47,681 nucleotides of DNA, taken from a virus. The position numbers were made by a program, and so were the translations under genes. Below, one piece after another: positions 15,287-37,933 of this stretch (position 1 is its first letter; every line of letters starts with the position of its first letter). The notes beneath the pieces are model-generated. The model saw only the letters and a program-made list of their open reading frames with translations, did no database searches and was not told the DNA's origin. The stretch is taken from the IMG/VR virus record IMGVR_UViG_3300000271_000001, positions 1 through 47,681 of that record. One strand, written 5' to 3'.

Positions 15287-15631
15287 ATGGCAGTTCTGGA
15301 ACTCCCGGTCACGAATGAAACTTCGCACTATTCCTTTCAGGTCGAACTGGAAGGGACGGTTTTTTTCTTCGAATTCTATTACAACACCCGCAGCCAGCTT
15401 TGGATTTTCGACCTGCTTGACCAGTCCGAACTTCCGATCCTGTTCGGACAGCCGGTGATCGGTGGGCAATTGCTGGCAGACGGTTTCATGATCGAAGGTA
15501 TGCCCGCAGGGAAGTTCATCGCAATCGACACGACTGGCGCTGATCGCTCACCCGATCGCCAGACGCTCGGGAACGAAGTGAAATTCTGCTATATCGAATC
15601 GACGACTGTCGCAGAGGTATCGAATGGCTGA
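15287..15631 (+). CDS. hypothetical baseplate-module protein
   Basis: 114-aa ORF in tight operon spacing. Confidence 0.5.
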   Translation: MAVLELPVTNETSHYSFQVELEGTVFFFEFYYNTRSQLWIFDLLDQSELPILFGQPVIGGQLLADGFMIEGMPAGKFIAIDTTGADRSPDRQTLGNEVKFCYIESTTVAEVSNG

Positions 15632-16520
15632 TCTATTCAACCAGGCGCGCAACGCAGGTTTCCCGCAGCCTACCGCGCTCCCCGCTGGTGCGAAGCTTTT
15701 TTTCAGACGCTGCGAACTGCGCATCGTGAACCTTCGCACACGCCAGGAACTCACGATCAAGGATGCAAGGATCAAATTCAATATTGAAAAGCAGGACCAG
15801 GGCGAACCGAACAAGGGCACGATCGAAGTGTTCAACCTTGCCGAGCGCACCAGAAACCTTTTCACGGTTCCACCGGAAATCAAGGAAAACGAAACGATCC
15901 GTGGCCTCTATATTGAGCTGTCCGCAGGATACCGCGACCTGACTCGCGTGATTCACACTGGCGACGCCAGTTCGCAGTCCTATTTCAGTTCCCCCGATTG
16001 GATCACGAAACTGGAAACCCAGGACGGGGGAAGCGCGATCCGAAACAGCGTGTTCAGTCGCAGCTATCGCGCCGGCTTTCCGATGAACCAGGCGATCAGG
16101 GACGTGATCGACAGTTTCGGACTTGCCCGGGGCTATACGATCCCCTCTGTCACGACCGCCAGAATTCAGCAAGGGCTGGCGCTCGGGGGAAAGAGCGCGG
16201 ACACCATGAACCAGTTTGCGAAGGACTTCGGGTTCAAGTGGTCAGTGCAGAACAACACGATCAATACGTGGTTCCCCCGCGGCGTCGTCGGTCCCATTGT
16301 GAACCTGACACCGAACAGCGGTCTGATCGGTTCCCCGATAAAGACCGACAAAGGCGTGAACTTCGACTGCTTTCTGATCCCCCTCATTCAGCCAGGCGTG
16401 ACCGTCCGCATATCGGGCTGTCAGGGCTTTAACGGGGACGTGGTCGTTCAGCGTCAAAAAATTGTCGGCGACGTCGACGGTGGGGACTGGAAAATTCAGA
16501 ACGAGGGGATACAGCCATGA
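15624..16520 (+). CDS. baseplate hub-like protein (gpD / gp44 / XkdQ position)
   Basis: 298 aa immediately upstream of the spike gene. Start and stop overlap the neighbouring genes. Confidence 0.5.
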   Translation: MADLFNQARNAGFPQPTALPAGAKLFFRRCELRIVNLRTRQELTIKDARIKFNIEKQDQGEPNKGTIEVFNLAERTRNLFTVPPEIKENETIRGLYIELSAGYRDLTRVIHTGDASSQSYFSSPDWITKLETQDGGSAIRNSVFSRSYRAGFPMNQAIRDVIDSFGLARGYTIPSVTTARIQQGLALGGKSADTMNQFAKDFGFKWSVQNNTINTWFPRGVVGPIVNLTPNSGLIGSPIKTDKGVNFDCFLIPLIQPGVTVRISGCQGFNGDVVVQRQKIVGDVDGGDWKIQNEGIQP

Positions 16521-17257
16521 GTGGACCGCGTGGAGCGCAGCAAACCCCCACACTGTTCCAGGTGATCGCGGAAGCAATCGAAGCGAAGCTGCGGTCGGTT
16601 TTTACCATGCTTCCGGGGACCGTGGTTTCAGTCGATAAGACGACGGGACTGATCAGCGCTCAGCCCGATTTCAGTTCCCTGTATGCGGACGATCCGAACA
16701 CACCCATCCCGCTCCCTGAAATCCCCGGTATTCCCGTTTATGAGGTTCGGGCTGGTGCAGCCAGGATCAGCGTCCCGGTGAAAAAGGGCGACAAGGTCAC
16801 GCTGATATTTTCCTCGCGGGCACTGGACGACTGGAAGCGCTCGGGAGCGCGCGCAGTCCCCCCGAGTGGTCGAACCCACGCGCTGTCCGATGCAGTCGCG
16901 TTCCCGGGGCTGTATGCGCAGAATGAAGCGCTCCCCTTGACCGACGACCTTTTGATCGAATTCGGCGCTGCGAAAATCAAGCTGGTCCAGGATGAACTCA
17001 TCGAAATGAAAGTCACGAATGCCACGCTGGCGATGAACAAGCAGGGAAAGTTCAAAATCACGAATGGGACGACCGACGTTCTGGTGCAGCTATCCGAAGC
17101 GCTGGGACGCAATATCACTGCGATCGACGAATTCCTGCTTGCGACCTTCGCGACCGCTCTAGGACCGTCTGGAACGATCGTGAACCCCCTTCCCTTCCAG
17201 CAGCTGAAACAGCAAACGACGAAAGCGAAAAAACTGGTCGATCAGCTGATCCTGTGA
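16517..17257 (+). CDS. baseplate central spike (Gp138 N-terminal domain / gpV-like)
   Basis: LPGTVVSVD...PEIPGIPVY...VPVKKGDKVTLIFSSRALDDW...HALSDAVAFPGL matches the OB-fold spike domain pattern. Confidence 0.75.
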   Translation: MSGPRGAQQTPTLFQVIAEAIEAKLRSVFTMLPGTVVSVDKTTGLISAQPDFSSLYADDPNTPIPLPEIPGIPVYEVRAGAARISVPVKKGDKVTLIFSSRALDDWKRSGARAVPPSGRTHALSDAVAFPGLYAQNEALPLTDDLLIEFGAAKIKLVQDELIEMKVTNATLAMNKQGKFKITNGTTDVLVQLSEALGRNITAIDEFLLATFATALGPSGTIVNPLPFQQLKQQTTKAKKLVDQLIL

Positions 17258-17312
17258 CAAAGTGTGCAGAACGACAGACTATGATTCGACGATTCAAAAG
17301 GTCAAATTGACG

Positions 17313-17359
17313 AAGCCCCTGAAACGCTCAAAAACGCGGTTCTGGGGCTTTCATTTTTT
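17313..17359 (+). terminator. intrinsic terminator ending the first late operon
   Basis: A 38-nt hairpin, AAGCCCCTGAAACGC...GCGGTTCTGGGGCTT (13 of 15 positions paired), followed by TCATTTTTT. Confidence 0.7.
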
Positions 17360-17371
17360 CCAGGCGGGAGT

Positions 17372-17692
17372 TTATCGGAAACTGGTCCGATCGGTGATCC
17401 TGGCCCCGGTTTCGCAAACGACGATTCGGGAGGTTCGAAGGGTTCGATACTCGCAGCACCCGAACTCGACCAGTACGGCCGCGCATGCGTCGTGATCGTA
17501 GCTGGTCGGATTGTCGGACCGAAAGCACCGGGCGTCGAAGCTGCGACCTGATGCGAAGCGGTCCACACACACCGCAGCGGGGATCCGTTCGAAGGGAAGC
17601 GGTTCGTCGTCCTGGAATATGGTGCCCGCAGACAAAGCCAGGGAACCGCATAGGACCGAGCACCAGGCCAGAAAACCTAAACCCCTGTCCAT
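17372..17692 (-). CDS. candidate secreted Cys-rich small protein (moron-like)
   Basis: ATG 17692 lies 6-7 nt after GAGGGGGAA. 106 aa with a signal-peptide-like N-terminus (MDRGLGFLAWCSVLCGSLALSAG) and 8 Cys. Its own promoter candidate is upstream, and the gene ends next to the hairpin at 17313-17359. Confidence 0.35.
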   Translation of the reverse strand: MDRGLGFLAWCSVLCGSLALSAGTIFQDDEPLPFERIPAAVCVDRFASGRSFDARCFRSDNPTSYDHDACAAVLVEFGCCEYRTLRTSRIVVCETGARITDRTSFR

Positions 17693-17736
17693 ACCAGCTT
17701 CCCCCTCGCGTTTTTCGCGTTTCTGCAATTCTGTGC

Positions 17737-17766
17737 ATTATGTACGACACGCCATAAAATTCCCAA
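17737..17766 (-). promoter_or_regulatory. candidate sigma70-type promoter (minus strand)
   Basis: Read on the minus strand: TTGGGA (17766-17761), 18-nt spacer, CATAAT (17742-17737). Confidence 0.35.
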
Positions 17767-17868
17767 GCCGAATTTCGTGAACCAGCTGAACAGCAAGCGG
17801 TCTGAACAGAACCCAGGTCGGAAAATTGCAAAAGCAGAAATCCGGGCGCTTCGCGCGGGGGCTTGCCA

Positions 17869-17878
17869 CCCCCCCCCC
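17869..17878 (+). repeat. C10 homopolymer
   Basis: Counted directly. Confidence 0.95.
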
Positions 17879-17914
17879 ATAAAAATCCCGAACCACACAC
17901 GCGCTTGGCTTGGG

Positions 17915-17923
17915 CCCCCCCCC
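17915..17923 (+). repeat. C9 homopolymer
   Basis: Counted directly. It lies 36 nt downstream of the C10 tract. Confidence 0.95.
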
Positions 17924-18415
17924 ACCGCTCTAAAGATGCGCTGCGCTTTTTGAAATCCCCTTCCCTGGAAATCGCGCTAGCGCAAAAAGGCTCGGCTGTT
18001 TCGATCCTGGGGGAAAAACGAGGAACGGCGCGAAGCGGGTTCCGAAGTCCCCAGGAACGGAACAGTGAGCAGACAAGGTCGGAACGAGCGCATGCGGAGC
18101 ATGCCCGAAGTGCAGACCGCGGCAGTGCTGGGGATGGGTGAAAACCTCGGGAAGCTGAACAGCGAAGCGCTTTTTAAGAAACCCGGAACGCCAGAACTGA
18201 CATGATCACGAAAGGTCCCTTGTGAAAAACGCAAACCCTCAACCCCGTGCTGCGAAACGGTTCTATGAAACACGGGGAAACATTCGTGCGCTGAAAAACG
18301 TGATCATAAAACCCCCTTCTGTAAACTCAAAAACCCGCAAACCCTTGAGCCCCAAAGCTTACGCGCAAGGCGATATGTTGACGCCTGTTTATTGGACGAA
18401 AAAAATAATCGCTGA

Positions 18416-18446
18416 AACCCGCACTGGAAGCGGGTTCCAACTTTTT
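18416..18446 (+). terminator. weak terminator-like hairpin
   Basis: AACCCGC (18416-18422) pairs with GCGGGTT (18430-18436) around a 7-nt loop. T5 follows after a 5-nt gap. Confidence 0.3.
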
Positions 18447-18457
18447 AGGGAGCTTTT

Positions 18458-18577
18458 ATGATCACCATGGCGGGCTGTCCCGCGCATGCTGAATCGGCAG
18501 AATTGAAACAGGAGTTGAGAAGTTCACATTTTGCACAGAAAAACCAAGCGTCGCTGAAAAAAACGGGGAGGGGATAA
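18458..18577 (+). CDS. possible 39-aa ORF
   Basis: An AGGGAG RBS (18447-18452) lies 5 nt upstream of ATG 18458. Product is MITMAGCPAHAESAELKQELRSSHFAQKNQASLKKTGRG. No other support. Confidence 0.2.
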   Translation: MITMAGCPAHAESAELKQELRSSHFAQKNQASLKKTGRG

Positions 18578-18584
18578 AGCCCCG
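18557..18584 (-). terminator. minus-strand intrinsic terminator
   Basis: On the minus strand, CGGGG(11-nt loop)CCCCG is followed by T7 (plus-strand A7 at 18557-18563). Confidence 0.4.
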
Positions 18585-18891
18585 AGCGCACAGGCTGATT
18601 ACAAGACTCGCGCATTGATCAATTTCGCAATCGCAAGCGCGGAAAATTCCCAGGCGCGAAACAAGCTGTGCAGCGTTTCGGTCGAATGCGATCGACGCGA
18701 ATTTTGCGATTTCAGTCCGCGAATCTTAACAAAGGGATCAAAAATTCATCAAAAAAGCGATGCGTTTGGGTAATGAAAAAGCTGGCGGGTAGGTCACACT
18801 TGCCTTCGGCCACTTCGAGATACCGGCGGCCGGTAGATTATAAGAAGCGAAACCGTAAAAACATTGGGGCCCAAGGGTTTCAAAATCGAAA

Positions 18892-18931
18892 AGTCATCCT
18901 GGGAATGACTTGAGTCATCCTGGGAATGACT
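18892..18931. promoter_or_regulatory. tandem pair of identical 19-bp palindromic operator-like sites
   Basis: AGTCATCCTGGGAATGACT occurs at 18892-18910 and 18913-18931 (21-bp period). Each site is a 6-bp inverted repeat (AGTCAT/ATGACT) with a 7-bp spacer. Confidence 0.7.
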
Positions 18932-18939
18932 GCGCATAT

Positions 18940-18968
18940 TTGAACCGACGATTTATGGCGCTTTTTAT
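18940..18968 (+). promoter_or_regulatory. candidate rightward promoter of the accessory operon
   Basis: TTGAAC (18940-18945), 17-nt spacer, TTTTAT (18963-18968). It lies 9 nt right of operator copy 2. Confidence 0.35.
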
Positions 18969-19186
18969 GGGTGTTTTTTGACTTGAGAGGCCACAATGCT
19001 ATTGCAAGCCGGCATTGCGTTTGTTCAAACCGCGACAGCTGAACCACAGTATTTCCATGCGCGACAGGATGCACCGCCTAAAAAAAAGCCTGCCAGGAAC
19101 GCGAAGCAGAGTTATCAAACCTTGGGGAGTGTGCTAGTGGAAAGCCGCAGTCACTCGAACCTCGCAAAATCCATGATGGGCAAACG

Positions 19187-19804
19187 ATGCAAAAAAGAGT
19201 CCGCCAAACTTTGAAGCGATGGAATAAAACCGATCATATTCACTGGGCAGTCCGAGCGTATGCCAGCAACGACTTGCTGGGCTATCTGCGTAATTTCTTT
19301 ATGCTCATTAACAATTGGAACAATTCACCTGAAACAGAGGAAACTCTGCGCAGGACCATATTTGCGGACACAGGCGAGGAAAAATGGACGCTGGGAAGTA
19401 TATCGAACGGAATAAATTCGCTCGAAAAGAAATATGGTGAAATCGAGCGTGTAAACGCATATCAGGTAAGGTGGAACCCCGAAATCGTAAACATGGGGGG
19501 ATCACAGATCGTAAGATCAAGCTACGGTGGAACCTCTGTCAAATATAGCGTGCAGGAAACTGCGCTCATAGAAAAGCTTAAGGAAAAATACCAGAGTGAC
19601 TTCATATTCAAAACGAATCACGAAATTAAAGAGGCCATACAGCAACGGGAAGACGAACTTTTCGATCGACTCACAAGCTTAACGGAAATGCTCAAAGCTG
19701 CGCTTGCTCTACTCCCGCCAGCAGACCGGGAAAGACTTATCGCAGAGTACGATTACGACGAACCAGTTTTTGATTTTGATTATAGAACCACACTAAGGAC
19801 ATAA
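19187..19804 (+). CDS. hypothetical protein (orphan)
   Basis: 205-aa ORF in an AT-rich context. No motif recognised. The RBS is weak, so the start is uncertain. Confidence 0.5.
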   Translation: MQKRVRQTLKRWNKTDHIHWAVRAYASNDLLGYLRNFFMLINNWNNSPETEETLRRTIFADTGEEKWTLGSISNGINSLEKKYGEIERVNAYQVRWNPEIVNMGGSQIVRSSYGGTSVKYSVQETALIEKLKEKYQSDFIFKTNHEIKEAIQQREDELFDRLTSLTEMLKAALALLPPADRERLIAEYDYDEPVFDFDYRTTLRT

Positions 19805-19843
19805 TTTCCCAAACGGGAACCTTCAAAAAGGGAGTGAAATTTC

Positions 19844-20002
19844 ATGAAAAAGACGGAGAAGAAAATAGCTCGGAATAGAGAAGATGTTCTGGCCAGCCTG
19901 GACAAGATCACGAACTTTTTGAAAGACTTCACGAATGAGATCCGTGAACAAAAGACACAGATTGCTGTTAAGGGAAAGCCACGTTTGCATGTTGTGAAGT
20001 GA
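19844..20002 (+). CDS. small coiled-coil protein (52 aa)
   Basis: GGGAG RBS, then ATG 19844 and TGA 20000-20002, translated by hand. Preferred over the antisense track ORF at 19823..20011. Confidence 0.45.
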   Translation: MKKTEKKIARNREDVLASLDKITNFLKDFTNEIREQKTQIAVKGKPRLHVVK

Positions 20003-20009
20003 AAAGCGC

Positions 20010-20255
20010 ATGGACGAATTTAAGAACCAATTAAAAGCTGCGAGTCGTAGCAGCAGTACGGATCAACTTACTGAGGGAGTAAGGGAACTCAGGAAACAGG
20101 TCGAAGAACTGCATCAACTGTTTCACCAGTTTTCGCATGAATACGCGAAGTGGAAAAAACCACGCGCAGAGTCGATCGACCATACTCAAGAGCATGAAAA
20201 CCCTAGAACTCACCTGAGTCTGATAAAAGAAGAAAACCCGCCTCAGAAAAATTAA
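20010..20255 (+). CDS. hypothetical coiled-coil protein
   Basis: 81-aa ORF. Confidence 0.5.
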   Translation: MDEFKNQLKAASRSSSTDQLTEGVRELRKQVEELHQLFHQFSHEYAKWKKPRAESIDHTQEHENPRTHLSLIKEENPPQKN

Positions 20256-20282
20256 ATCAAGACTTTACCTGATCTTACCGAA

Positions 20283-20314
20283 AACCCCTGGCATACAAAC
20301 TTTTTCCAGGGGTT
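20283..20314 (+). promoter_or_regulatory. 9-bp perfect hairpin covering the RBS of the next gene
   Basis: AACCCCTGG (20283-20291) pairs with CCAGGGGTT (20306-20314). The 3' arm contains the AGGGG Shine-Dalgarno of ATG 20322. Confidence 0.5.
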
Positions 20315-20321
20315 GAAATTT

Positions 20322-21098
20322 ATGAAGTATTTCGTGCTGGGATCGGTATTTTTTGCCATGCAAGCCTGTGCGACCGTGCTCGACCATGGTCGGAACGAAT
20401 GTCAGGATCCCGAGGAATACTGGGGACAGAAATGGGTGGAAAATTATTCCAAGGATCTTTCCAGTCTGTCCTTAGAGGAATTGCGCAAAATGAACGATAC
20501 AATGGGGAACAAGCAGTCGGTCCTGGTGATCGAACGAATGAAGCGCTGCAGCAATCCCAAGGCGAAAGACATGAGCGAAAGACACCCGACCTTCCTTGTG
20601 AAACTTGACCAGGCTATTCAATCCAAGCAAACCCAGCTTGAACAGGTGCGCGCGGAAAACCTGAAACAGATCGAAGCGGACGAAGCTGCAGAAATGGAAG
20701 CGCAGGAAAGGGAAAAGCAAGCGGTCTGCGACAAGGTCGGTAAGGTGATAAAGAAAAAGGGACTGAAAACAGAATGCGGTTTGACCGTGAACGACATAAT
20801 CACCGGGCTATTGAGGAATTTTGCTTCGGTGAAGGACGTAAAAAACGCAGTCGGTGATATTGGAACCCGCGAATCAGCATGGACCGCTTTCCAGGCTTTC
20901 CCCGACAGGGCTTTGTTCATGAGCGACAGCGGTGTCGTCCTTTTAGTGAAGCGCCAGGGGATCCTGGAAAGCCAGAAACTTTCAGACCTGGGATGCTTCG
21001 TCGCAGAAATGAAGTGCTTCCTGGCGTTCGACGGTGTCACGACCTACCAGACGAACTTCGGATCCAAACAGGCTTTCGTGTTCCGGGTAGTCGAGTGA
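20322..21098 (+). CDS. secreted or lipoprotein-like protein
   Basis: N-terminus MKYFVLGSVFFAMQAC is a signal peptide with a Cys at an imperfect lipobox. There is a central coiled coil. Confidence 0.55.
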   Translation: MKYFVLGSVFFAMQACATVLDHGRNECQDPEEYWGQKWVENYSKDLSSLSLEELRKMNDTMGNKQSVLVIERMKRCSNPKAKDMSERHPTFLVKLDQAIQSKQTQLEQVRAENLKQIEADEAAEMEAQEREKQAVCDKVGKVIKKKGLKTECGLTVNDIITGLLRNFASVKDVKNAVGDIGTRESAWTAFQAFPDRALFMSDSGVVLLVKRQGILESQKLSDLGCFVAEMKCFLAFDGVTTYQTNFGSKQAFVFRVVE

Positions 21099-21123
21099 GC
21101 TGGTCCCGTCTGAATTTTCCCGC

Positions 21124-21152
21124 CTGATAATTTATCAGAAAACTGATATCAG
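21124..21152. promoter_or_regulatory. two adjacent palindromes sharing the half-site CTGATA
   Basis: CTGATAATTTATCAG (21124-21138) and CTGATATCAG (21143-21152). Confidence 0.5.
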
Positions 21153-21199
21153 AATTCCTGGAAGGGCAATCCCAGCCCTTTAGCGGGAGTTTATTCCTC

Positions 21200-21490
21200 A
21201 TGATCGAACTAAATCCAATCTCATTTGCAGCCGGGTATTGTTCCGGTGTCCTGATCACTGGGCTGATCGGCTACCGTTTGGTCTGGAAGCGGTATAGACG
21301 ACTGCGCGACCACGCTGCATACCAGGACATAAAGGTCACTCGAATCTATAGGGACGGTGTTCTGCAAACGCAGACGGTCGAACCCTTGAACCCCTTCGAC
21401 AAGGAAAAGGACGACGGGACGCTTCCGCTCCCTTTGGTTGAGGTTCCACCGGGGACGCGAATGAGCGAAATCCAGGAAAGGAAGCACTAA
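21200..21490 (+). CDS. small membrane protein
   Basis: 96 aa with an N-terminal TM segment (ISFAAGYCSGVLITGLIGYRLVW). GGGAG RBS. Confidence 0.55.
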   Translation: MIELNPISFAAGYCSGVLITGLIGYRLVWKRYRRLRDHAAYQDIKVTRIYRDGVLQTQTVEPLNPFDKEKDDGTLPLPLVEVPPGTRMSEIQERKH

Positions 21491-21684
21491 TGCTTCATTG
21501 TTTCTATTGCGGGGAGCGCGCATCGTTCCTCTGCGATTATCCCGACTGCGATCGTCCTATATGCGCTGGCCATACCAGGCGAATCGGTTTCGTCTGCTAT
21601 CGCGCGAGGAACAAGCGCTTGAGCGACACGGTCGATTGCTGCACAACTCACGACGACTGGAAAGGCGACTATGCAGACCGATGA
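21490..21684 (+). CDS. small Cys-rich (zinc-binding-like) protein
   Basis: 64 aa containing CFYCG...CDYPDCDRPIC...H...CC. TAATG overlap with the upstream gene. Confidence 0.5.
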   Translation: MLHCFYCGERASFLCDYPDCDRPICAGHTRRIGFVCYRARNKRLSDTVDCCTTHDDWKGDYADR

Positions 21685-21895
21685 CCAGGGACCGAAGGTT
21701 CCAAAGCACTATGGTTTTCTTACGCTGGCGACCAGCTGGCTGGCGAACGAAATCGGGAAAAAGATGAACACGCTGGCACGCGACGAAAACGAAGAACGGG
21801 AAGCGCTGATGCAGCTGGAACACGATGTCCTGATCGCGCTGCAAAAATATCAGCAATACTTCGATGAAAAAAAAGGCGACGACACCGATGGCTAA
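21671..21895 (+). CDS. hypothetical protein
   Basis: 74-aa ORF with operon overlap. Confidence 0.45.
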   Translation: MQTDDQGPKVPKHYGFLTLATSWLANEIGKKMNTLARDENEEREALMQLEHDVLIALQKYQQYFDEKKGDDTDG

Positions 21896-22055
21896 AATGC
21901 AAAAATTTCGGTTCCTTTACTGCACGGGCGACGGTGAAGTCGTGAAAGAGGAATTCGAATTCGAGGACGGGACCAGAATGGAAACAGTTCGTCTGGAATT
22001 CCTGGACTGGCTGCAGAAAAAGACCAGCGCGACTTTTTATCCCGTCAACCAATAG
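21888..22055 (+). CDS. hypothetical protein
   Basis: ATG 21888 overlaps the upstream stop by 8 nt. 55 aa. Confidence 0.4.
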   Translation: MAKMQKFRFLYCTGDGEVVKEEFEFEDGTRMETVRLEFLDWLQKKTSATFYPVNQ

Positions 22056-22071
22056 TCATTGGGGGAATCGA

Positions 22072-22335
22072 ATGAAAAAGAACGAATCGCAGAAAATGAT
22101 CACAATGCCTTACCAGGAATACCTGGACGACCTTGAAGCTGTACGAGCTGAAGTATATGAACAGCGCATAGCCCCGATCAGGGAGCTGATCGAAGTCGGG
22201 GTCAGCTTGCATAAGACGATCGACAGGATGCCACACGTTTTCTGGAAGTTCGAAGGGACCAAGGAAAAGCTTATGGAACAACTCTGCGAAATTCTCGATA
22301 TGCCCACCGTGGACGAAATGCGCAAGGGTTTATAA
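22072..22335 (+). CDS. hypothetical protein
   Basis: 87-aa ORF. Confidence 0.5.
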   Translation: MKKNESQKMITMPYQEYLDDLEAVRAEVYEQRIAPIRELIEVGVSLHKTIDRMPHVFWKFEGTKEKLMEQLCEILDMPTVDEMRKGL

Positions 22336-22352
22336 AGGGGGAAACAGGTGTT

Positions 22353-22676
22353 ATGCAGCGAATTCAATTTCTGAACCCATGGGGGACGATCGCCTTTTCC
22401 GACATGCAAATGCGCAAGCTGATCGGGTTCGGTGCTCCGATCATGAACGGTTCGGAATTCATCGGGTGGAACGTGAGCGCAAACCCCTGCCAGCTCGACT
22501 TTTCAGTGTGGCTTTCCTTCGTCCCCGACGTTTACCGCGATCAGTGCATGGACATTTGCAGACGTGTCGCTCAGGAATTTCACTATCGAATGATCAAGGA
22601 TCAAACCCATGAGGAAATCATAGTCGCAGTGCAGCGGCGAATCTGGCGCGAAGTCGAACCCGTCGCTGTCGAATAG
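22353..22676 (+). CDS. hypothetical protein
   Basis: 107-aa ORF. Confidence 0.5.
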   Translation: MQRIQFLNPWGTIAFSDMQMRKLIGFGAPIMNGSEFIGWNVSANPCQLDFSVWLSFVPDVYRDQCMDICRRVAQEFHYRMIKDQTHEEIIVAVQRRIWREVEPVAVE

Positions 22677-22743
22677 ATTTCTGGTTATGATGATTAGTAA
22701 GTTTCACCCCGGTAAACGCACTGAATATAAAGGAGCGCACGAC

Positions 22744-22962
22744 ATGAGCGACAAGCCTAAAACCTACGATCCGAAAAAAGCGCGCGTGGTGATCGGGGGG
22801 GAGGAAGTCGAACCCTTTGAAGGAACGATTATGGGGACATGGAAAACCGATCAGCAAACCGACCATGGAAAAATTCATGCAGAAACTATAGAAAGGAAAT
22901 GCGAGTGCGGAAAGGCTGAGTGCGAACACTGTTCGACTCCAGGATCATACCGGAAAGGATAA
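22744..22962 (+). CDS. small Cys-containing protein
   Basis: AAAGGAG RBS before ATG 22744. 72 aa with a C-terminal CECGKAECEHC motif. Confidence 0.45.
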   Translation: MSDKPKTYDPKKARVVIGGEEVEPFEGTIMGTWKTDQQTDHGKIHAETIERKCECGKAECEHCSTPGSYRKG

Positions 22963-22965
22963 GAG

Positions 22966-23385
22966 ATGTATTTTAACGCGACCAGAACCGATCGGGTTCC
23001 GGGTGTGATATACCCGACAAACCGCTGTTTCGACGATGCAGTTGAAATTGCGATGAAACTGGTCGCACGGTTTCCAGTTCATGGCATGCTCAGTCGAATC
23101 AGAATCGTCCACGGTTTGCTTACCATGCCTATGGAAAGCGAGGTTTTCGCGCATGCCTGGGTTCTGCTTGATCGTGACAAGGTGATTCAGCGCGGGATTA
23201 AGGACGACATGGTAATCGAATACGCCTTGACCGTCGATGAATTCAGGGACCTTTACAAACCCGCTCACTGTATCCAATATAGCCTGAAAGAAATCAGGGG
23301 ACTGATTCAGCGGAATAAGAACTGCGGTCCTTTTAACCGAAGGTTCTGGAACCATGTGAACTGGAACGGGGGAAAGCCTGAGTGA
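22966..23385 (+). CDS. hypothetical protein with a Cys...His arrangement (possible papain-like fold)
   Basis: 139 aa with NRCFDDAVE, then FAHAWVLLD and further His/Asn residues. The fold idea is speculative. Confidence 0.4.
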   Translation: MYFNATRTDRVPGVIYPTNRCFDDAVEIAMKLVARFPVHGMLSRIRIVHGLLTMPMESEVFAHAWVLLDRDKVIQRGIKDDMVIEYALTVDEFRDLYKPAHCIQYSLKEIRGLIQRNKNCGPFNRRFWNHVNWNGGKPE

Positions 23386-23648
23386 AACAAAAGCTAGTTC
23401 GGTATGCAGCTGCATTTTTATTTTTCAACGCATTGCTTGCAGGTGTCGGGATTTTTCTGAACCTGACCAGCACTGGCGACAGCGAACGCAATATGCTGCC
23501 GCTTGATAAGACGTTCTGTGTCGAAATCTGCCTTAAGGAACTGCAGGAACGCGCTGTCTTTCCTGACTTTCACGAAGCTGTCAAACGCTGCGATTTTATG
23601 TTTGGGGGAACCGATACGTGCGAGCTGTCGAGTCAGCGGGTGAAGTAA
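23382..23648 (+). CDS. small membrane or secreted protein
   Basis: GTGA overlap start. N-terminal hydrophobic segment AAAFLFFNALLAGVGIFLNL. Confidence 0.45.
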   Translation: MKQKLVRYAAAFLFFNALLAGVGIFLNLTSTGDSERNMLPLDKTFCVEICLKELQERAVFPDFHEAVKRCDFMFGGTDTCELSSQRVK

Positions 23649-23933
23649 AAAAAGTGTTCCATGTGAAACTATTTTTGACTTTCGTCAATCTGATTTTGCT
23701 TCCAGCTGCAATTCTGCTTGGGGCTTTGAAAGGTTTCGGGGTGATAAGCGCGAACCTTGTCGAGCTATGGACAGGTCGTGTGGGCAAGTGATCGGACAAA
23801 GCTTTTTGCTGACACTCGGAGTCGTCCCCTTGATCACTTCCCGCCATGGCTGCGGAATTCCTCGAACCCCCACACGACCTGCAATTCCATGATAAGCTGT
23901 CCACGTTGCGATATCCAATAGCAGAGGTATGAA

Positions 23934-24239
23934 ATGAAAGAATGGCTCTTAGGTCTTATCGTGCGTTTCATCGTCGAACAGATCCGCAACGGTGGAATTG
24001 AATCGCTTGCGGAAAAGCTGCAGGCGATTGTAATCCCCACTGTTCGCAAGTATAAAGACGAAATTTTTGATCGTCTGAAAGCCGAAGCTGCAGCGGACGG
24101 TGATCCGAACGGATTGAACGATTCAGTCGTCGAAGCACTGGACCTTTTTTTCGACGCGCTGATCCCGAACTGTTCACAATGCCTGGCCAGTGTGTCAAAA
24201 TCAGAAAATCAGCAAAGCGAAAATCTGGCGGTGAGCTAG
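23934..24239 (+). CDS. hypothetical protein
   Basis: 101-aa ORF with an AGAGG RBS. It is the last gene before two terminators. Confidence 0.5.
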   Translation: MKEWLLGLIVRFIVEQIRNGGIESLAEKLQAIVIPTVRKYKDEIFDRLKAEAAADGDPNGLNDSVVEALDLFFDALIPNCSQCLASVSKSENQQSENLAVS

Positions 24240-24256
24240 AGGGAAAAGCAAGGGGG

Positions 24257-24290
24257 ACCGGGACGCGCACACGTTTCCGGTTTTTTTCTT
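24257..24290 (+). terminator. intrinsic terminator
   Basis: ACCGGGA (24257-24263) pairs with TTCCGGT (24275-24281), followed by T7CTTTT. Confidence 0.65.
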
Positions 24291-24393
24291 TTGCCCGCTG
24301 CGTCTGACTTCCAGCCTGGCGACATGATAAGATCGTGCTATGCCATAACGGGCGACGCGCTCAGAATTTCGAGGACAGTCAGTCGTAAGCGGG

Positions 24394-24425
24394 GCCCCGG
24401 GATCTTTCCCAGGGGCTCTTTTTTT
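24394..24425 (+). terminator. intrinsic terminator (second of a tandem pair)
   Basis: GCCCCGGGA pairs with TCCC(A)GGGGC around a TCTT loop, followed by TCTTTTTTT. Confidence 0.65.
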
Positions 24426-24700
24426 ATGCACCGATCACCTTCCATGGCGCAATTAAACCGAGCTACGTTTTATTTGATAACTTCGATTTTCATTCCATGT
24501 CACATTGACTAAAAGATTGCGAAACGACCTTTATGCAATTTGATCGAATCATTCAGTCGGCACCGATCACGCCTCGCCGCGGACGAGCTCTAACGAGGCG
24601 AGGCATCGAGGCGAAAATCTCGAGCGCGCGCGGCGAACTCACTCTCGAAGTTTCCAAACGAATCGGGCAAGCTTGACGAAAATTCGGGGGAGCGCAAACC

Positions 24701-25237
24701 ATGGTCCTGGCAAACGCTGCAGCCTGGCAAACTGCCTGGGCTACTGTTCCAAACGTCGCTGACAATAGCTGGAAAGCAAACCTTGCGAACAAGGTCGATA
24801 GCCTGGTCACGAATCTATTGACGACGAACGGTTTGTTCAAGGCACCAGCGACGCCGGCGCTGACTTTCACTTTTGCAAAATCGACATTTCAAAGCGCGCT
24901 CACCGATAACAAACCCGCGACACTGGCGAATGCTTTCGAATCTGCTATCCTCGCATCGACCTATGTCGTTCCCATAAACTCTTTCATCGGCACCGACACA
25001 CCTGCGACAAAGTTCAGCGTCGTCGCATCCTGCGTCGTCGATCCCGCGAGTGTCGCACTGGCGAAAGCGAAGTTCCTCGAAATCTTAGGCCTCACACCTG
25101 TTTCAGCTGCGAATCAGTCCCAGTTTCCGGTAAAACTGAGGGAAGCTTTTTTATTACTGACAGTGACGACGACGGGAACCAATTCAGTAGCGCCGACACC
25201 GTCGCCTTTAACCGATGCAGGGAGGGCTTTACAGTGA
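24701..25237 (+). CDS. hypothetical baseplate-module protein
   Basis: 178 aa with a GGGGGAG RBS. It is the first gene of the second late operon. Confidence 0.5.
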   Translation: MVLANAAAWQTAWATVPNVADNSWKANLANKVDSLVTNLLTTNGLFKAPATPALTFTFAKSTFQSALTDNKPATLANAFESAILASTYVVPINSFIGTDTPATKFSVVASCVVDPASVALAKAKFLEILGLTPVSAANQSQFPVKLREAFLLLTVTTTGTNSVAPTPSPLTDAGRALQ

Positions 25238-28803: not shown

Positions 28804-29304
28804 ATGGCATCGCTGATCGAACGCATTGTCGCGCACGTCCTCAAAATAGGACCGAAAGCAAACACGAATGATCTAGGGCTGATTTTTGATAATGGAAACG
28901 GATCACCGCCTGGTTTCAAGGTCGAAGCATCAACGAATATCCTTAAGTTTTCATCGGGGGGAAACCCTTACCAGGCGTTCCCTTCGGATCCGGTCGTCGA
29001 AACGGTCACGGGCACGAAAGCCATGGGAGCGGGGGATAACAAAAAGATTTTGTTATGCGACTGCACGTCGGCCTTGGTTATTATCGACGTTCCCGATCCT
29101 GCGGTCGTCGGCTCGGGCTATAGCTTCGTGGCTGTCGATAAGAAAATGAACGCAAGCTTGACGAACTATATTCGGCTGCAGCGAAACGGATCCGAAAAGA
29201 TCGGTGAAGTCGCTGCAGACTTTTATTTGTATGAAGCTGGCGGGTTCGTCGAAGTGGTCACAGACGGAACAGACTGGTTTATTTTGCGCAGGGGGAATTG
29301 CTGA
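28804..29304 (+). CDS. hypothetical fibre-module protein
   Basis: 166-aa ORF. The stop overlaps the next start (TGATG). Confidence 0.5.
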   Translation: MASLIERIVAHVLKIGPKANTNDLGLIFDNGNGSPPGFKVEASTNILKFSSGGNPYQAFPSDPVVETVTGTKAMGAGDNKKILLCDCTSALVIIDVPDPAVVGSGYSFVAVDKKMNASLTNYIRLQRNGSEKIGEVAADFYLYEAGGFVEVVTDGTDWFILRRGNC

Positions 29305-30641: not shown

Positions 30642-30669
30642 TTTGAACTCAAACTATAAAGAGCACCGC

Positions 30670-33856: not shown

Positions 33857-34858
33857 ATGGGTTTGGTTCAATTTCCGGTTCCTGGTCCGCAAGGTCCGCA
33901 AGGGGAAACAGGTCCGCAGGGAATTCAAGGTCCCCAAGGGGAAACTGGACCGCAGGGGATCCAAGGCGCGACAGGTCCGCAGGGGCCCCAAGGTGAAGTC
34001 GGTCCGCAAGGTCCAGCTGGACAGGGCGTTCCCGCAGGTGGAACGACTGGACAGGTTCTGAAAAAAAACTCTGACACCGACTACGATGCAGACTGGTCTG
34101 ATGAATCAGGAGGCGGAGGCGGAGGCGGAGTCGATCCAAGGACTGAATTTGTACTGATGGACAAGTTTACGCCCTCGCAGCAAGCCTCCATTGTCTATTC
34201 TGAGGTTTTCGGAACCGCTTCGGGGAACACCGGTTCCAGTAGTCGCCAGTTCGGTTGGTTGCATGGTAACTATTGCGTCTATTTGCAAGTCGTATCAACT
34301 GCAACTATTACTAGCAATCAGGCTTTCGACAGTAATACTCAGACTGTGACGGGTGTTGCCGGAACTTCGCAAGCTGCGCCACCGTCTGGAACAGTAGTTG
34401 AAATTGAAGTCAGATTCAAACATTTGGCTGACAATCTTCCAAACAACAATCAGCAAACTTGGTTTTTTGGGTTTGTGAATACCATCTCCAATATTCACAA
34501 TACGATCGTAGGCGTTCCCTGTTATGGGTTTCAGATAAACGGAAATGCTACTGGAATAACGCTCGGTCGATATATGGTCCGAATAAAAAAAGCAGCCGAT
34601 AGTGCCAATACCTGGATTGACTGCGGGGCCGTCAGTGCAGGATGGCATAAAGCAAGGATGCGAATAACGACTATTTCACAGGATAACTACACTTTCGAAT
34701 TTTATTTCGATGACGTTCTGATTCACACCGAAACAAATTGCACCTGGAGTAGTGTCACTTCCAGATTAAATTGTGGTGTGACAGGCGGCGCGGGTTACGT
34801 AAGCGGAACCTACGGCGTACTTTATGATTATCACTATTTGAAATACATACCTGTTTAG
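33857..34858 (+). CDS. collagen-like tail fibre protein
   Basis: About 16 uninterrupted G-X-Y triplets ([15 protein letters not shown]...), then a G6 hinge and a ~230-aa globular C-terminus. Confidence 0.75.
33884..34030 (+). repeat. 9-nt periodic collagen-coding tandem repeat
   Basis: GGTCCGCAA-type units read directly. Confidence 0.8.
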
Positions 34859-37917: not shown

Positions 37918-37933
37918 GGTCCGTTCCCTTTCG

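What the first reader, a model, noticed from the sequence alone, without database searches (positions are those of the whole stretch)
17360..19186. A 1.8-kb ORF-poor, GC-rich, hairpin-dense region: candidate large ncRNA(s) or control hub
This stretch has backbone-like GC (38/60 at 17461-17520), where random ORFs should be long. Even so, every track ORF here overlaps others in different frames and translates to Arg/Ser/Pro-rich sequence that does not look like protein. The region does contain many stable local structures: CCCCGTG...CACGGGG (18242-18277), AACCCGC...GCGGGTT (18416-18436), GCGGG...CCCGC (about 18470-18483), TACCGG...CCGGTA (about 18821-18835) and the palindrome GCGCTAGCGC (17972-17981). 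It also holds two long C tracts and an exact 12-mer, GAAGCGGGTTCC, at 18032 and 18427, with shorter variants at 17555 and 17596. GGAACG occurs four times between 18022 and 18190. The region sits between a + strand terminator and the island promoter, so it is not simple read-through. It could encode one or more structured RNAs, or it could be a decayed gene.
Basis: seen in the sequence. Interest (0 to 1): 0.75.

Follow-up and report, generated by a model that had tools for sequence, protein, structure and literature searches.

The report
Phage attachment site, not giant RNA
The "empty" 1.9-kb stretch is where this temperate phage of Oligoflexus bacteria recombines with the host chromosome, flanked by a small hidden gene, terminators and regulatory sites; it is not a large RNA gene, and the odd part is that the complete phage genome has no recognisable integrase.

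Summary
The listed motifs are all present, but the region is not generally hairpin-dense and not fully ORF-free. It is a composite prophage-junction region.

- **attP:** the 13-bp core CCTGTTTATTGGA (18384-18396) is the crossover site. Close relatives are integrated exactly there in Oligoflexus chromosomes, upstream of the CCA-adding-enzyme gene. Three Oligoflexus genomes carry the matching empty site.
- **Left of the core:** the late-operon terminator; a missed minus-strand gene (17372-17692, small secreted Cys-rich protein, clear purifying selection); two length-variable poly-C tracts; and a strongly constrained ~300-bp non-coding block holding one 81-nt hairpin with compensatory changes.
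- **Right of the core:** a covarying terminator, an arm that patchily mimics the host flank, and a swappable operator/promoter cassette.
- **Negative results:** no Rfam hit, no protein remnant, and no fold excess outside three local elements. A large ncRNA and a decayed gene are both unsupported.
- **Surprise:** the circular 47.6-kb genome has no Pfam- or PHROG-detectable integrase, transposase or reverse transcriptase. The attP module sits in an 8-kb insertion inside the baseplate operon.

The recombinase, and the function of the conserved hairpin block, remain unknown.

The parts
17312..17359 (+). Intrinsic terminator ending the tail/baseplate (spike) transcription unit. It is a GC-rich hairpin (GAAGCCCC...GGGGCTT) followed by TCATTTTTT.
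   Evidence: The fold of 17300-17360 gives -23.8 kcal/mol and z -4.1, with 0 of 200 shuffles as stable. It is nearly invariant in five lineages.
17372..17692 (-). It is a candidate moron (lysogenic-conversion gene) at the prophage's right end.
   Evidence: Synonymous:non-synonymous counts are 23:13 and 10:5 in its frame, against 1:35 to 5:31 in most other frames (the mirror + frame, which carries stop codons, also shows 20:17 and 7:8). With five lineages there are 31 synonymous-only against 18 non-synonymous codon columns and no stops. A 9-nt in-frame indel is present, and a 10-nt indel lies just upstream of the ATG. An SD-like GAGGGGGAAG sits about 6 nt before the ATG. There is one homologue cluster at 89% identity and no family hit.
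17737..17766 (-). Sigma-70-like promoter (TTGGGA-18-CATAAT) for the small minus-strand gene.
   Evidence: Found by the consensus scan. Both hexamers are conserved in all lineages. This is a consensus match only; function is inferred.
17869..17923 (.). Two poly-C tracts (C10 at 17869-17878 and C9 at 17915-17923), each preceded by GGCTTG. Tract lengths differ between relatives.
   Evidence: (D11). Lengths are 10/9/8 and 9/8/7 across lineages. No promoter match has a suitable spacer (own inspection). Function is unknown.
17930..18220 (.). Strongly constrained non-coding block. It holds the hairpin and a nearly invariant 70-nt stretch (about 18076-18146).
   Evidence: Divergence from L001 is 1.2-6.7%, against 27% at four-fold degenerate sites of flanking genes. 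No frame shows a synonymous excess. There is no Rfam or Pfam hit and no similarity to host loci.
17990..18070 (.). An 81-nt, 30-bp hairpin with small bulges. It is the only long structure in the region that is supported by evolution. The strand is unresolved.
   Evidence: The + strand gives -46.1 kcal/mol and z -6.2; the - strand gives -37.9 and z -3.35. With three sequences, 100% of cells are paired, three pairs changed on both sides, and slid controls give 28-48% paired with none changed on both sides. With five lineages, 3 of 150 cells are broken.
18299..18317 (-). Left copy of a 17-19-nt motif (GGGGGTTTTATGATCAC), inverted relative to the right copy. It is a candidate binding site for a recombinase or accessory protein.
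   Evidence: Inverted repeat I4, 17 nt and 88% complementary, centred at 18382. ATGATCAC occurs 9 times in the window against 1.57 expected, three of them within 18202-18465. It is 19 nt at 95% identity to the host flank of the lysogen. It is invariant in relatives.
18384..18396 (.). attP core CCTGTTTATTGGA, the crossover site with the Oligoflexus chromosome. Similarity to attB extends over about 32 bp (18367-18399).
   Evidence: Homology of integrated relatives to the window stops at 18396 on one junction (L001) and starts at 18381 on the other (L011, L029). The core is present at both junctions. The reconstructed empty site aligns across the junction with O. tunisiensis and an Oligoflexus MAG. 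The lysogen lies on a 127.8-kb host contig. The site is uninterrupted in the window, L003, L030, L031 and L034.
18397..18560 (+). Right (P') arm. It is nearly invariant among phages and is a collinear, patchy mimic of the host sequence to the right of attB.
   Evidence: See alignment A4. Three blocks are shared in the same order: the core, GGGRGNTWWWAWGATCA (+50 in phage, +42 in host) and ACAGAAAARC (+138 / +159). Arm-against-flank local scores of 32-34 compare with a shuffle maximum of 28-30.
18411..18445 (+). Intrinsic terminator just right of the core (hairpin then AACTTTTT). It likely insulates the prophage end. An A7 run on its other side allows weak minus-strand action.
   Evidence: Terminator scan hits on both strands. 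The stem sequence differs between lineages while pairing is kept, with two pairs changed on both sides.
18222..18461 (+). A 79-codon open frame that spans the core. It is probably not a gene.
   Evidence: It is open in all six sequences, but only 2 codon columns are synonymous-only against 36 non-synonymous. Its conserved blocks coincide with the DNA motif, the core and the terminator, whose compensatory changes alter the peptide.
18458..18577 (+). A 39-46-codon ORF with SD AGGGAG. Its coding status is unresolved.
   Evidence: A gene finder called it in L029. The first 18 codons are invariant at the DNA level, so they carry no information. Elsewhere the count is 2 synonymous-only to 8 non-synonymous, and C-termini differ.
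18761..19186 (+). Variable regulatory cassette upstream of the island. It has two tandem copies of the palindrome AGTCATCCTGGGAATGACT (18892-18931) just upstream of a weak promoter-like TTGAAC-17-TTTTAT.
   Evidence: (D8); fold z -2.9. Relatives L003, L011 and L031 diverge from the window at about 18760. L011 carries a different tandem palindrome (ACAACTCCTGAAAAGTTGT twice) and a different first island gene (221 aa in L003 and L011, 228 aa in L031, against 205 aa). The promoter is from own inspection.

Best explanation
The stretch 17258-19186 is the phage's attachment-site (attP) region together with the two ends the prophage has once integrated. It is not a large RNA gene.

**Shown.**
- The window is a circularly assembled, complete genome of about 47.6 kb from a temperate, contractile-tailed phage of Oligoflexus.
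- Recombination with the host occurs within the 13-bp core CCTGTTTATTGGA (18384-18396).
- The host site lies in the intergenic region upstream of the CCA-adding-enzyme gene.

**Inferred mechanism.**
- The reaction is conservative site-specific recombination of the tyrosine-recombinase type.
- The core is embedded in about 32 bp of attP/attB similarity with imperfect dyad symmetry.
- It is bracketed by an inverted 17-nt motif that also occurs in the host site. This motif is the likely binding site for the recombinase or an accessory protein.
- The right arm mimics the host's right flank, so attL would restore the host's intergenic element in front of the cca gene.
- Terminators at 17312-17359 and 18411-18445 insulate the junction.

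**Content on each side.**
- Left of the core, which becomes the attR end of the prophage: a self-contained minus-strand gene for a small secreted Cys-rich protein (moron-like). There is also a constrained ~300-bp non-coding block with one conserved 81-nt hairpin. That block may be a small RNA, a processing or termination hairpin, or a cis-acting DNA element; this is not resolved.
- Right of the core, which becomes the attL end: a swappable operator/promoter cassette that drives the accessory island.

**Unknown.** The enzyme is not identified. No integrase, resolvase, transposase or reverse transcriptase is detectable anywhere in the genome. It is either host- or helper-encoded, or belongs to an unrecognised family.
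For: **Junctions.**
- L001 matches the window up to 18396 and then continues with unrelated DNA.
- L011 and L029 match from 18381 onward, preceded by a PolyA_pol/CCA-enzyme gene.
- The 13-bp core is present at both junctions.

**Host and empty site.**
- That enzyme is 75-77% identical to Oligoflexus proteins.
- The reconstructed empty site aligns without a break across the junction in O. tunisiensis and an Oligoflexus MAG. The far flank is collinear in O. tunisiensis, and the att element itself is also conserved in a second Oligoflexus MAG.
- L029 lies on a 127.8-kb contig with 8 kb of cellular genes beside attL.
- Five phage-form sequences have the site uninterrupted.
- The window has an 82-nt terminal overlap, so it is a circular assembly.

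**attP architecture:**

**Small gene:**

**Constraint on non-coding parts:**

**Hairpin and terminator covariation:**

**No RNA family or tRNA:**

**No protein remnant:**

**No recombinase:**

**Insertion in the baseplate operon.** In distant relative L008 the spike and gp25-like genes abut, whereas in the window they are 7,976 nt apart.
Against: - No integrase or excisionase lies next to attP or anywhere else. The usual partner of such a site is therefore missing, and the recombination chemistry is inferred only from site anatomy.
- The constrained block at 17930-18220 lies 165-450 bp from the core. That is farther than typical arm-type sites, so the attP role does not explain it.
- Its hairpin has three unpaired cells in two lineages.
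- The motif assigned as a binding site is supported only by repetition, symmetry and conservation.
- The "moron" label rests on position, strand and a consensus promoter, not on expression data.
- A 271-codon stop-free frame on the minus strand (17331-18173) is longer than in 99.8% of shuffles. It shows no synonymous excess, is broken in L001 and matches no family.
Confidence: 0.82

Rival explanations
1. The region encodes one or more large structured non-coding RNAs of the GOLLD/ROOL/OLE type, or a new class.
For: About 1 kb of non-coding sequence is conserved well below the neutral rate. One 81-nt hairpin and one terminator show compensatory changes.
Against: - There is no Rfam hit at gathering score in the window, and only E above 1 in the region.
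- Fold z-scores run between -1.6 and +1.3 for 14 of 17 folded stretches, and -1.7/-0.8 for 681 nt.
- Consensus folds on both strands show covariation only in the hairpin, with several broken pairs elsewhere.
- The stretch is split by a protein gene, by the crossover site, and by terminators.
Confidence: 0.05
2. A small RNA of about 100-500 nt that includes the 17990-18070 hairpin is made from the constrained block. One candidate is a minus-strand RNA of about 320 nt, running from the TTGAGT-16-TATGAT promoter at 18330-18303 and ending at the hairpin plus U5. The other is a plus-strand RNA that crosses attP and ends at the 18411-18445 terminator. This adds to the attP explanation and does not exclude it.
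For: - Constraint of 1-7% divergence.
- Hairpin covariation.
- The minus-strand promoter-like site has an invariant -10.
- A U5 run follows the hairpin on the minus strand in all lineages but L003.
- Three G-U pairs and lower free energy favour the plus strand.
Against: - Strand evidence conflicts.
- The -35 element is not conserved, and the U run is lost in L003.
- No covariation outside the hairpin.
- No Rfam family.
Confidence: 0.3
3. The stretch is a decayed or frameshifted gene, for example the missing integrase broken at the homopolymer C tracts.
For: - It sits exactly where an integrase would be expected, next to attP.
- The minus strand has a 271-codon stop-free frame (17331-18173), reached in only 0.2% of shuffles.
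- C-tract lengths differ between assemblies.
Against: - Six-frame translations give no Pfam match at E up to 1.
- That frame shows 2-5 synonymous-only against 33-46 non-synonymous codon columns over 17375-17990 (9 against 23 over 17990-18221) and is interrupted in L001, L030 and L031.
- No frame between or beyond the C tracts shows a coding signature.
- The sequence is more conserved than neutral, which a dead gene would not be.
Confidence: 0.05
4. The unrelated DNA in L001 and L011 is a mobile element or cargo inserted into the phage, not the host chromosome. On this reading 18384-18396 is a target-site duplication rather than attP.
For: Locally, an insertion into a circular phage and a prophage in a chromosome look the same. 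Both IMG/VR contigs end within 2 kb of the junction.
Against: - The two flanks are contiguous and syntenic in Oligoflexus genomes that lack the phage.
- One lysogen contig is 127.8 kb, with 8 kb of cellular genes shown beside the junction.
- Contig length equals one phage genome plus the flank.
Confidence: 0.02
5. The constrained block with hairpin and C tracts is a replication origin or another cis-acting DNA element unrelated to integration.
For: - It is conserved non-coding DNA with a long inverted repeat that folds on both strands.
- No replication initiator or origin has been identified elsewhere.
- The neighbouring first island gene varies as a cassette.
Against: - There are no iterons or AT-rich unwinding element in 17930-18220.
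- A second ORF-poor stretch at about 40380-41000, next to the early genes, is an equally good origin candidate.
- G-U pairs in the hairpin suggest RNA rather than DNA.
Confidence: 0.1

Closest known systems
attP/attB site-specific integration of temperate tailed phages (lambda-type, tyrosine integrase)
   Same: - A short identical core is shared by phage and host, and the prophage is flanked by the core.
- Related hosts carry an empty attB.
- The sequence around the crossover region has imperfect dyad symmetry.
- Repeated motifs lie in both arms, and the region is a non-coding attP of several hundred bp.
- Accessory (moron-type) genes sit at the prophage ends.
   Different: - No int or xis gene lies next to the site or anywhere in the genome.
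- The module sits inside the baseplate operon, not at the end of a lysogeny operon.
- The conserved non-coding DNA extends about 690 bp to the left of the core.
Integrative mobile elements exploiting Xer (IMEX: CTXphi, VGJphi, TLCphi; also described for microviruses and double-jelly-roll phages; papers found)
   Same: - The element integrates site-specifically without encoding its own recombinase.
- The target is a short chromosomal sequence conserved across host species.
- The phage site carries sequence resembling the host site.
   Different: - The Oligoflexus attB lacks the conserved XerD-arm motif TTATGT. It does not resemble the Bdellovibrio dif TCTTCTGATAAGTTATATTATGTAACGG (PMC2731167).
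- This is a 47.6-kb tailed dsDNA phage.
- Location at the replication terminus could not be tested.
Phages that integrate into a functional host element and carry a replacement copy (tRNA/tmRNA-targeting phages such as P4, P22, HP1; own knowledge)
   Same: One attP arm (18397-18560) is collinear with the host sequence displaced by integration. One junction would therefore restore a host-like element.
   Different: - The target is an intergenic element upstream of cca, not a tRNA. There is no tRNA or Rfam hit in the host loci.
- Similarity is patchy (three blocks) rather than near-identical.
Lambda sib retroregulation hairpin (RNase III site beyond attP; own knowledge)
   Same: A long, nearly perfect hairpin lies a few hundred bp from attP. 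Integration would separate it from genes on the other side.
   Different: - There is no int gene to regulate.
- No gene is transcribed towards the hairpin across attP.
- The strand and any RNase III cleavage are untested. This is a resemblance only.
Large phage- or prophage-associated ncRNAs (GOLLD, ROOL) and retron msr/msd
   Same: A conserved non-coding stretch in a phage genome that contains stable hairpins.
   Different: - No covariance-model match.
- No global structure signal.
- No reverse transcriptase in the genome.

Membership tests
Phage attachment site (attP) for site-specific integration | Sequence identity between the phage site and the host site at the crossover (common core). 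| tested here: met
   The 13-bp CCTGTTTATTGGA is present in the phage. Host attB reads CCTGTATATTGGA or CCTGTATTTTGGA in three Oligoflexus genomes. By own count, 22 of 32 positions match around it.
Phage attachment site (attP) for site-specific integration | The integrated form is flanked by the core, with phage DNA permuted at that point (attL and attR). | tested here: met
   L001 homology ends at 18396. L011 and L029 homology starts at 18381. The core is at both junctions.
Phage attachment site (attP) for site-specific integration | An unoccupied attB with contiguous flanks exists in related hosts. | tested here: met
   The reconstructed site aligns across the junction with L014 (O. tunisiensis) and L013, and the att element is also conserved in L015. 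The far flank is collinear in L014.
Phage attachment site (attP) for site-specific integration | A cognate phage-encoded integrase (tyrosine or serine recombinase), usually adjacent. | tested here: not met
   - Pfam was run on all large ORFs.
- Pfam was also run on 149 stop-to-stop segments of 77 aa or more on both strands, and on six-frame translations of the region.
- PHROGs was run on 46 unknown ORFs.
- No integrase, resolvase, transposase or excisionase family was found.
Phage attachment site (attP) for site-specific integration | Arm-type or accessory protein-binding repeats flanking the core. | tested here: inconclusive
   An inverted 17-nt motif lies at 18300-18316 and 18449-18465. ATGATCAC is enriched, with 9 copies against 1.57 expected. 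The motif is shared with the host site. Binding was not tested.
IMEX (Xer/dif-exploiting integrative element) | No self-encoded recombinase. | tested here: met
   The result applies within the sensitivity of Pfam and PHROGs profiles.
IMEX (Xer/dif-exploiting integrative element) | attB is the chromosomal dif site (28 bp: XerC arm, 6-bp centre, XerD arm with TTATGT). | tested here: not met
   Oligoflexus attB (…AATACACCTGTATATTGGATGG…) has no TTATGT arm. It does not align with proteobacterial or Bdellovibrio dif (own inspection).
IMEX (Xer/dif-exploiting integrative element) | attB lies at the replication terminus. | not testable with these tools
   Only 13 kb of the O. tunisiensis scaffold is held. 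GC skew there is uninformative. The scaffold's start is arbitrary because it is a SOAPdenovo assembly.
Large structured ncRNA (Rfam families such as GOLLD, ROOL, raiA, OLE, tmRNA, group I/II introns) | A match to the family covariance model. | tested here: not met
   There were 0 matches at gathering score in the whole window. In 17100-19400 only five matches appeared, all with E of 1.7 or more. No tRNA or tmRNA was found.
Large structured ncRNA (new class) | Thermodynamic and evolutionary signal of extended structure. | tested here: not met
   z is -1.7 and -0.8 for 681 nt. Most folded stretches give z of 0 or above. Covariation is confined to one 81-nt hairpin and one terminator.
Retron (msr/msd plus reverse transcriptase) | An adjacent reverse-transcriptase gene. 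| tested here: not met
   No RT family was found in any ORF or segment.
IS110/IS1111-type bridge-RNA recombination | A DEDD/RuvC-like recombinase gene next to a non-coding RNA with two internal guide loops. | tested here: not met
   No DEDD_Tnp_IS110 or Transposase_20 hit. The hairpin is a near-continuous 30-bp stem without large internal loops.
Moron / lysogenic-conversion gene | A self-contained gene (own promoter and terminator) near a prophage end, oriented independently of neighbouring operons and absent from related phages. | tested here: inconclusive
   - Gene 17372-17692 is on the opposite strand to all neighbours.
- It has a conserved promoter-like site and shares the bidirectional hairpin at 17312-17351.
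- It is absent from distant relatives L008 and L012.
- Expression was not tested.

The most novel reading that the evidence does not exclude
A contractile-tailed temperate phage integrates at a specific, conserved chromosomal sequence without encoding any recognisable recombinase. Two routes are open. It could borrow a host or helper recombinase that normally acts on the conserved cca-upstream element, which shares the 17-nt motif and the core with attP. That would be an IMEX-like strategy at a non-dif site, not described for tailed phages in the papers found here. Or it could carry a recombinase of an unrecognised family among its small unknown ORFs. The strongly constrained ~300-bp non-coding block with the covarying hairpin next to attP could be part of that machinery or its control.
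Probability: 0.35. Interest if true: 0.8.

Novelty: new variant of a known kind. Interest (0 to 1): 0.5.

Why it matters
**For annotation.** Integration sites and small opposite-strand genes explain many "empty" regions in phage genomes. They can be pinned down to the base by comparing free and integrated relatives.

**For biology.**
- This is, in the material found here, the first documented temperate phage and att site for Oligoflexus (class Oligoflexia).
- The attP module sits in an unusual place, inside an 8-kb insertion in the baseplate operon.
- It has an unusual deficit: no integrase in a complete genome, yet both free and integrated forms are found among relatives about 90% identical.
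- If the phage really uses a host enzyme or a new recombinase family, that would widen the known routes to lysogeny for tailed phages. It could also yield a new site-specific recombination tool.

**Open item.** The constrained hairpin block is a compact, testable candidate for a prophage-end regulatory RNA or cis element.

Tried and rejected
1. **Rfam.** Gathering mode on the whole window and permissive mode on the region found nothing real. The Moco-II match (E 1.7) is chance.
2. **Similarity searches.**
   - GenBank phages with sensitive blastn: no match.
   - Metagenome contigs with the spike profile and with a conserved 26-mer: nothing.
   - Genome contigs with the 26-mer: nothing.
   - Two conserved non-coding patterns against IMG/VR returned only the two contigs already known.
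3. **Decayed gene.** Six-frame Pfam was empty. The long minus-strand open frame 17331-18173 has no coding signature.
4. **ORF79 across attP and ORF39.** Both were considered as real genes because of ATGA start/stop overlap, an SD sequence, and being open in all lineages. The substitution pattern does not support ORF79 and is uninformative for ORF39.
5. **dif/Xer target.**
   - attB lies at 49% of the O. tunisiensis scaffold, which looked suggestive.
   - The scaffold start is arbitrary.
   - attB lacks dif motifs.
   - GC skew over 13 kb is uninformative.
6. **Bridge-RNA, retron or group II intron mechanisms.** No matching enzyme or RNA model was found.
7. **Poly-C tracts as promoter spacers.** Spacer lengths do not fit sigma-70 promoters (own inspection).
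8. **GGAACG and the 12-mer as repeated binding sites.** They are not conserved among relatives.
9. **Promoter TTGACG-17-AAAAAT spanning the core.** Its -35 is not conserved in relatives.
10. **Known RNA or tRNA at host attB.** None found.
11. **Structure prediction of candidate recombinases.** Not run. The unknown non-structural ORFs of 170 aa or more that I read (205 and 177 aa) show no HxxR motif of tyrosine recombinases, and the 178- and 288-aa ORFs look like a structural and a secreted protein (own reading).

Full report
**1. What the window is**

The window is a tailed-phage genome. It encodes a terminase, portal, Mu-F-like head protein, major capsid, sheath, tube and tape measure. It also encodes a Dit-like protein, a baseplate hub (15624-16520) and a central spike (16517-17257, Pfam PF18352). 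An 82-nt terminal direct repeat shows that the sequence is a circular assembly of about 47.6 kb.

The baseplate genes resume only at 25234 (gp25-like "sheath initiator") and 25633 (wedge). In a distant relative (L008), the spike homologue (30% identity, E 5e-23) abuts the gp25-like homologue (35% identity, E 2e-21). L012 has the same compact arrangement by gene sizes. The 7,976 nt from 17258 to 25233 are therefore an insertion into the baseplate operon. The finding covers the first 1.9 kb of that insertion. A lower-GC island of small + strand ORFs without family hits follows.

**2. Checking the observation**

Two of the generalisations fail.

*The region is not ORF-free.* The minus-strand ORF 17372-17692 (106 aa) carries a clear coding signature.
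- Synonymous to non-synonymous differences are 23:13 and 10:5 against two relatives, while most other frames give 1:35 to 5:31. The mirror + frame also looks synonymous-rich but carries stop codons.
- With five lineages there are 31 synonymous-only against 18 non-synonymous codon columns, and no stops.
- A 9-nt in-frame indel lies inside the ORF, and a 10-nt indel lies immediately upstream of the ATG.
- The product has a signal-peptide-like N-terminus and six cysteines in an 83-aa mature part.
- It has no family match and one homologue cluster.
- A promoter-like TTGGGA-18-CATAAT (17766-17737) is conserved.

*The region is not hairpin-dense beyond chance.* Of 17 stretches folded across the region (overlapping 150-nt tiles plus three short stretches placed on candidate hairpins), only three beat dinucleotide shuffles:
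- the terminator at 17300-17360 (z -4.1);
- the hairpin in 17985-18076 (z -6.2);
- the tandem palindromes in 18850-18999 (z -2.9).

The rest give z between -1.6 and +1.3. The 681-nt core stretch gives z -1.7 on + and -0.8 on -.

The exact 12-mer repeat is about what chance allows, by my own estimate. It is not preserved in relative L003. Three of the four GGAACG copies vary among relatives.

**3. Relatives and the decisive result**

The lineage is rare. The spike protein has one homologue cluster among 5.8 billion proteins. Even so, the searches recovered several relatives:
- two IMG/VR contigs (L001; L002 and L011 are the two ends of the other);
- ENA and Logan contigs L003, L030, L031/L032 and L034;
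- a 127.8-kb JGI contig, L029.

Homology of L001 to the window runs through the non-coding region and stops at 18396. Unrelated DNA follows. Homology of L011 and L029 starts at 18381. It is preceded by a gene for a CCA-adding enzyme / poly(A) polymerase (Pfam PF01743, PF12627). The 13-mer CCTGTTTATTGGA is present at both junctions.

The flanking enzyme is 75-77% identical to those of Oligoflexus tunisiensis and an Oligoflexus MAG. When the two flanks are joined, they align without interruption across the junction with those two genomes. The far flank is collinear in O. tunisiensis, and the att element itself is also conserved in a second Oligoflexus MAG, L015. L029 shows 8 kb of ordinary cellular genes next to the junction.

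So 18384-18396 is the attP core, and the host is Oligoflexus. Some relatives are integrated prophages. The window, L003, L030, L031 and L034 carry the uninterrupted phage form.

**4. Anatomy of the site**

Similarity between attP and attB extends over about 32 bp: AGGCGAT…AC(R)CCTGT(W)TATTGGA(Y)G, with 22 of 32 positions matching by my own count. The sequence has imperfect dyad symmetry around TGTWTAT. That is the layout expected for a tyrosine-recombinase core; this is inference.

A 17-nt motif (GGGGGTTTTATGATCAC) occurs inverted at 18300-18316 and direct at 18449-18465. The pair is centred on 18382. Its ATGATCAC core is enriched in the window (9 copies against 1.57 expected), with three copies within 264 bp around the core. 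The same motif lies 42 nt to the right of the host core, and a degenerate inverted copy abuts the host core on the left.

The right arm (18397-18560) is almost invariant among phages. It shares three blocks with the host's right flank, in the same order and at similar spacing. I infer that attL would rebuild a host-like element in front of the cca gene.

Immediately right of the core is a hairpin followed by AACTTTTT (18411-18445). Its stem sequence differs between lineages while pairing is kept. I read it as an insulating terminator.

Beyond about 18760, several relatives (L003, L011, L031) carry a different sequence, and the first island gene differs in length among relatives: 205 aa in the window, 221 in L003 and L011, 228, 229 and 275 in others. 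Where I read the sequence (L011), a different tandem palindrome replaces the window's pair. This looks like a swappable operator-regulator cassette.

**5. The rest of the non-coding DNA**

Four-fold degenerate sites of two flanking genes differ by 27% between the window and L001. Codon positions 1 and 2 differ by 2.8%. Against that yardstick:
- the hairpin differs by 1.2%;
- 18072-18220 differs by 5.4%;
- 17930-17989 differs by 6.7%;
- the poly-C region differs by 10%;
- 18221-18383 differs by 18%;
- 18561-18760 is near neutral (28% against L003).

A block of about 300 bp (17930-18220) is therefore under strong constraint. It shows no coding signature in any frame, no Pfam remnant, no Rfam match and no similarity to host DNA.

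Within it, the 81-nt hairpin (17990-18070) keeps 30 pairs.
- With three sequences, all cells pair and three pairs changed on both sides. Slid controls give 28-48% pairing and no double changes.
- With five lineages, three of 150 cells are unpaired.
- The strand is unresolved. The plus strand is more stable and has three G-U pairs. The minus strand has a U5 run after the hairpin in all lineages but L003, and an upstream promoter-like site with an invariant -10.
- No covariation is seen elsewhere on either strand.

Two small + strand frames deserve mention.
- ORF79 (18222-18461) spans the core and is open in all six sequences. It has only 2 synonymous-only against 36 non-synonymous codon columns. 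Its conserved blocks coincide with the DNA motif, the core and the terminator. It is probably not a gene.
- ORF39 (18458-18577) has a good SD sequence and was called by a gene finder in L029. It carries too little variation to judge.

**6. The missing enzyme**

No integrase, resolvase, transposase, excisionase or reverse transcriptase was found by any of these searches:
- Pfam or PHROGs on all large ORFs;
- a pooled Pfam scan of 149 stop-to-stop segments of 77 aa or more on both strands;
- a pooled PHROG scan of 46 unknown ORFs, where the top 25 of 31 matched families were shown;
- six-frame translations of the region itself.

The lysogen contig equals one phage length plus the flank. Nothing is therefore missing from the window.

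The host site is not a canonical dif. It lacks the TTATGT arm and does not resemble the Bdellovibrio dif listed in PMC2731167. Its position at 49% of the O. tunisiensis scaffold means nothing, because that scaffold's start is arbitrary. The papers found describe Xer-exploiting integration for filamentous, microvirus-like and double-jelly-roll phages.

**7. Verdict**

It is a phage attachment-site region containing:
- a hidden moron-like gene;
- two terminators;
- candidate recombinase-binding repeats;
- a host-mimicking arm;
- a variable operator cassette.

One constrained hairpin-bearing block remains of unknown role. The kind of element is well known. The variant is unusual in two ways. First, attP lies inside the baseplate operon. 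Second, a complete genome with both free and integrated relatives has no recognisable recombinase.

Confidence that 18384-18396 is the attP core is about 0.9. Confidence in the overall reading is about 0.8. The recombination chemistry and the role of 17930-18220 are inferred, not shown.

Noticed in passing
window 1-82 and 47600-47681: An 82-nt terminal direct repeat. The window is a circular assembly of a complete genome of about 47.6 kb. The small-terminase-like ORF (from about 47357) runs across the junction.
   Followed up: partly
window 17258-25233: The whole 8-kb segment (moron, attP, operator cassette, and an island of about 14 small + strand ORFs with no family hits) is inserted between the spike and gp25-like baseplate genes. 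These two genes abut in distant relative L008, and L012 has the same compact arrangement by gene sizes. This is an unusual place for a lysogeny or accessory module.
   Followed up: partly
window 18761-20244; L011 1915-3488; L030 8585-9412; L031 9104-9790: The first island gene comes in several lengths among relatives about 90% identical: 205, 221, 275 and 228-229 aa. Window and L011, the two I compared, share no detectable DNA similarity over this cassette, and each has its own pair of tandem palindromes. This looks like exchange of regulator-operator (immunity-type) cassettes.
   Followed up: partly
window 40380-41000: A second ORF-poor stretch of about 0.6 kb lies between the small early + strand genes. 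Only short, overlapping ORFs occur there. It is a candidate origin or regulatory region.
   Followed up: no
window 37606-38266 (- strand): A Gp49-like (HigB/RelE-type) gene plus an HTH_37/XRE gene form a toxin-antitoxin-like or repressor pair. They sit at the end of a minus-strand block (37606-39654) that faces the + strand early genes. This is the likely lysogeny-control region, and it has no integrase at its end.
   Followed up: no
window 30613-32738: Two adjacent glycosyltransferase family 9 (heptosyltransferase-like) genes sit inside the tail-fibre module. Next to them are an RCC1-repeat protein (29298-30641) and a collagen-like fibre (33857-34858).
   Followed up: no
window 35909-37667: A ParB-like nuclease or partition protein (strong PHROG hits, weak Pfam ParB_N) is followed by a C5 cytosine methyltransferase. 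A Mu Gam-like PHROG hit (E 2e-6) occurs in one of the unknown ORFs.
   Followed up: no
L013 ~1470-1530, L014 ~5800-5860, L015 ~180-240 (host loci): The empty attB is part of an intergenic element of about 55 bp upstream of the cca gene. It is almost identical in three Oligoflexus species although the surrounding spacer has diverged. A second conserved block (GGGGGTWWWAWGATCA) lies about 45 nt away. Its host function is unknown, and it gives no Rfam or tRNA hit.
   Followed up: partly
window 17331-18173 (- strand): A 281-codon stop-free frame overlaps the small gene in another frame. It is longer than in 99.8% of mononucleotide shuffles. It has no coding signature and no family match, and it is broken in relatives.
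   Followed up: yes
window 17869-17878 and 17915-17923: Homopolymer C tracts vary in length between independent assemblies (10/9/8 and 9/8/7). This could be slippage in vivo or assembly and sequencing noise. Each tract is preceded by GGCTTG.
   Followed up: partly
Pfam output for window 16517-17257 and precomputed tables: The name of Pfam family PF18352 is printed as 'xxxxx_N' (masked) in tool outputs. I treated it as the phage central-spike N-terminal domain on the basis of its description line.
   Followed up: no
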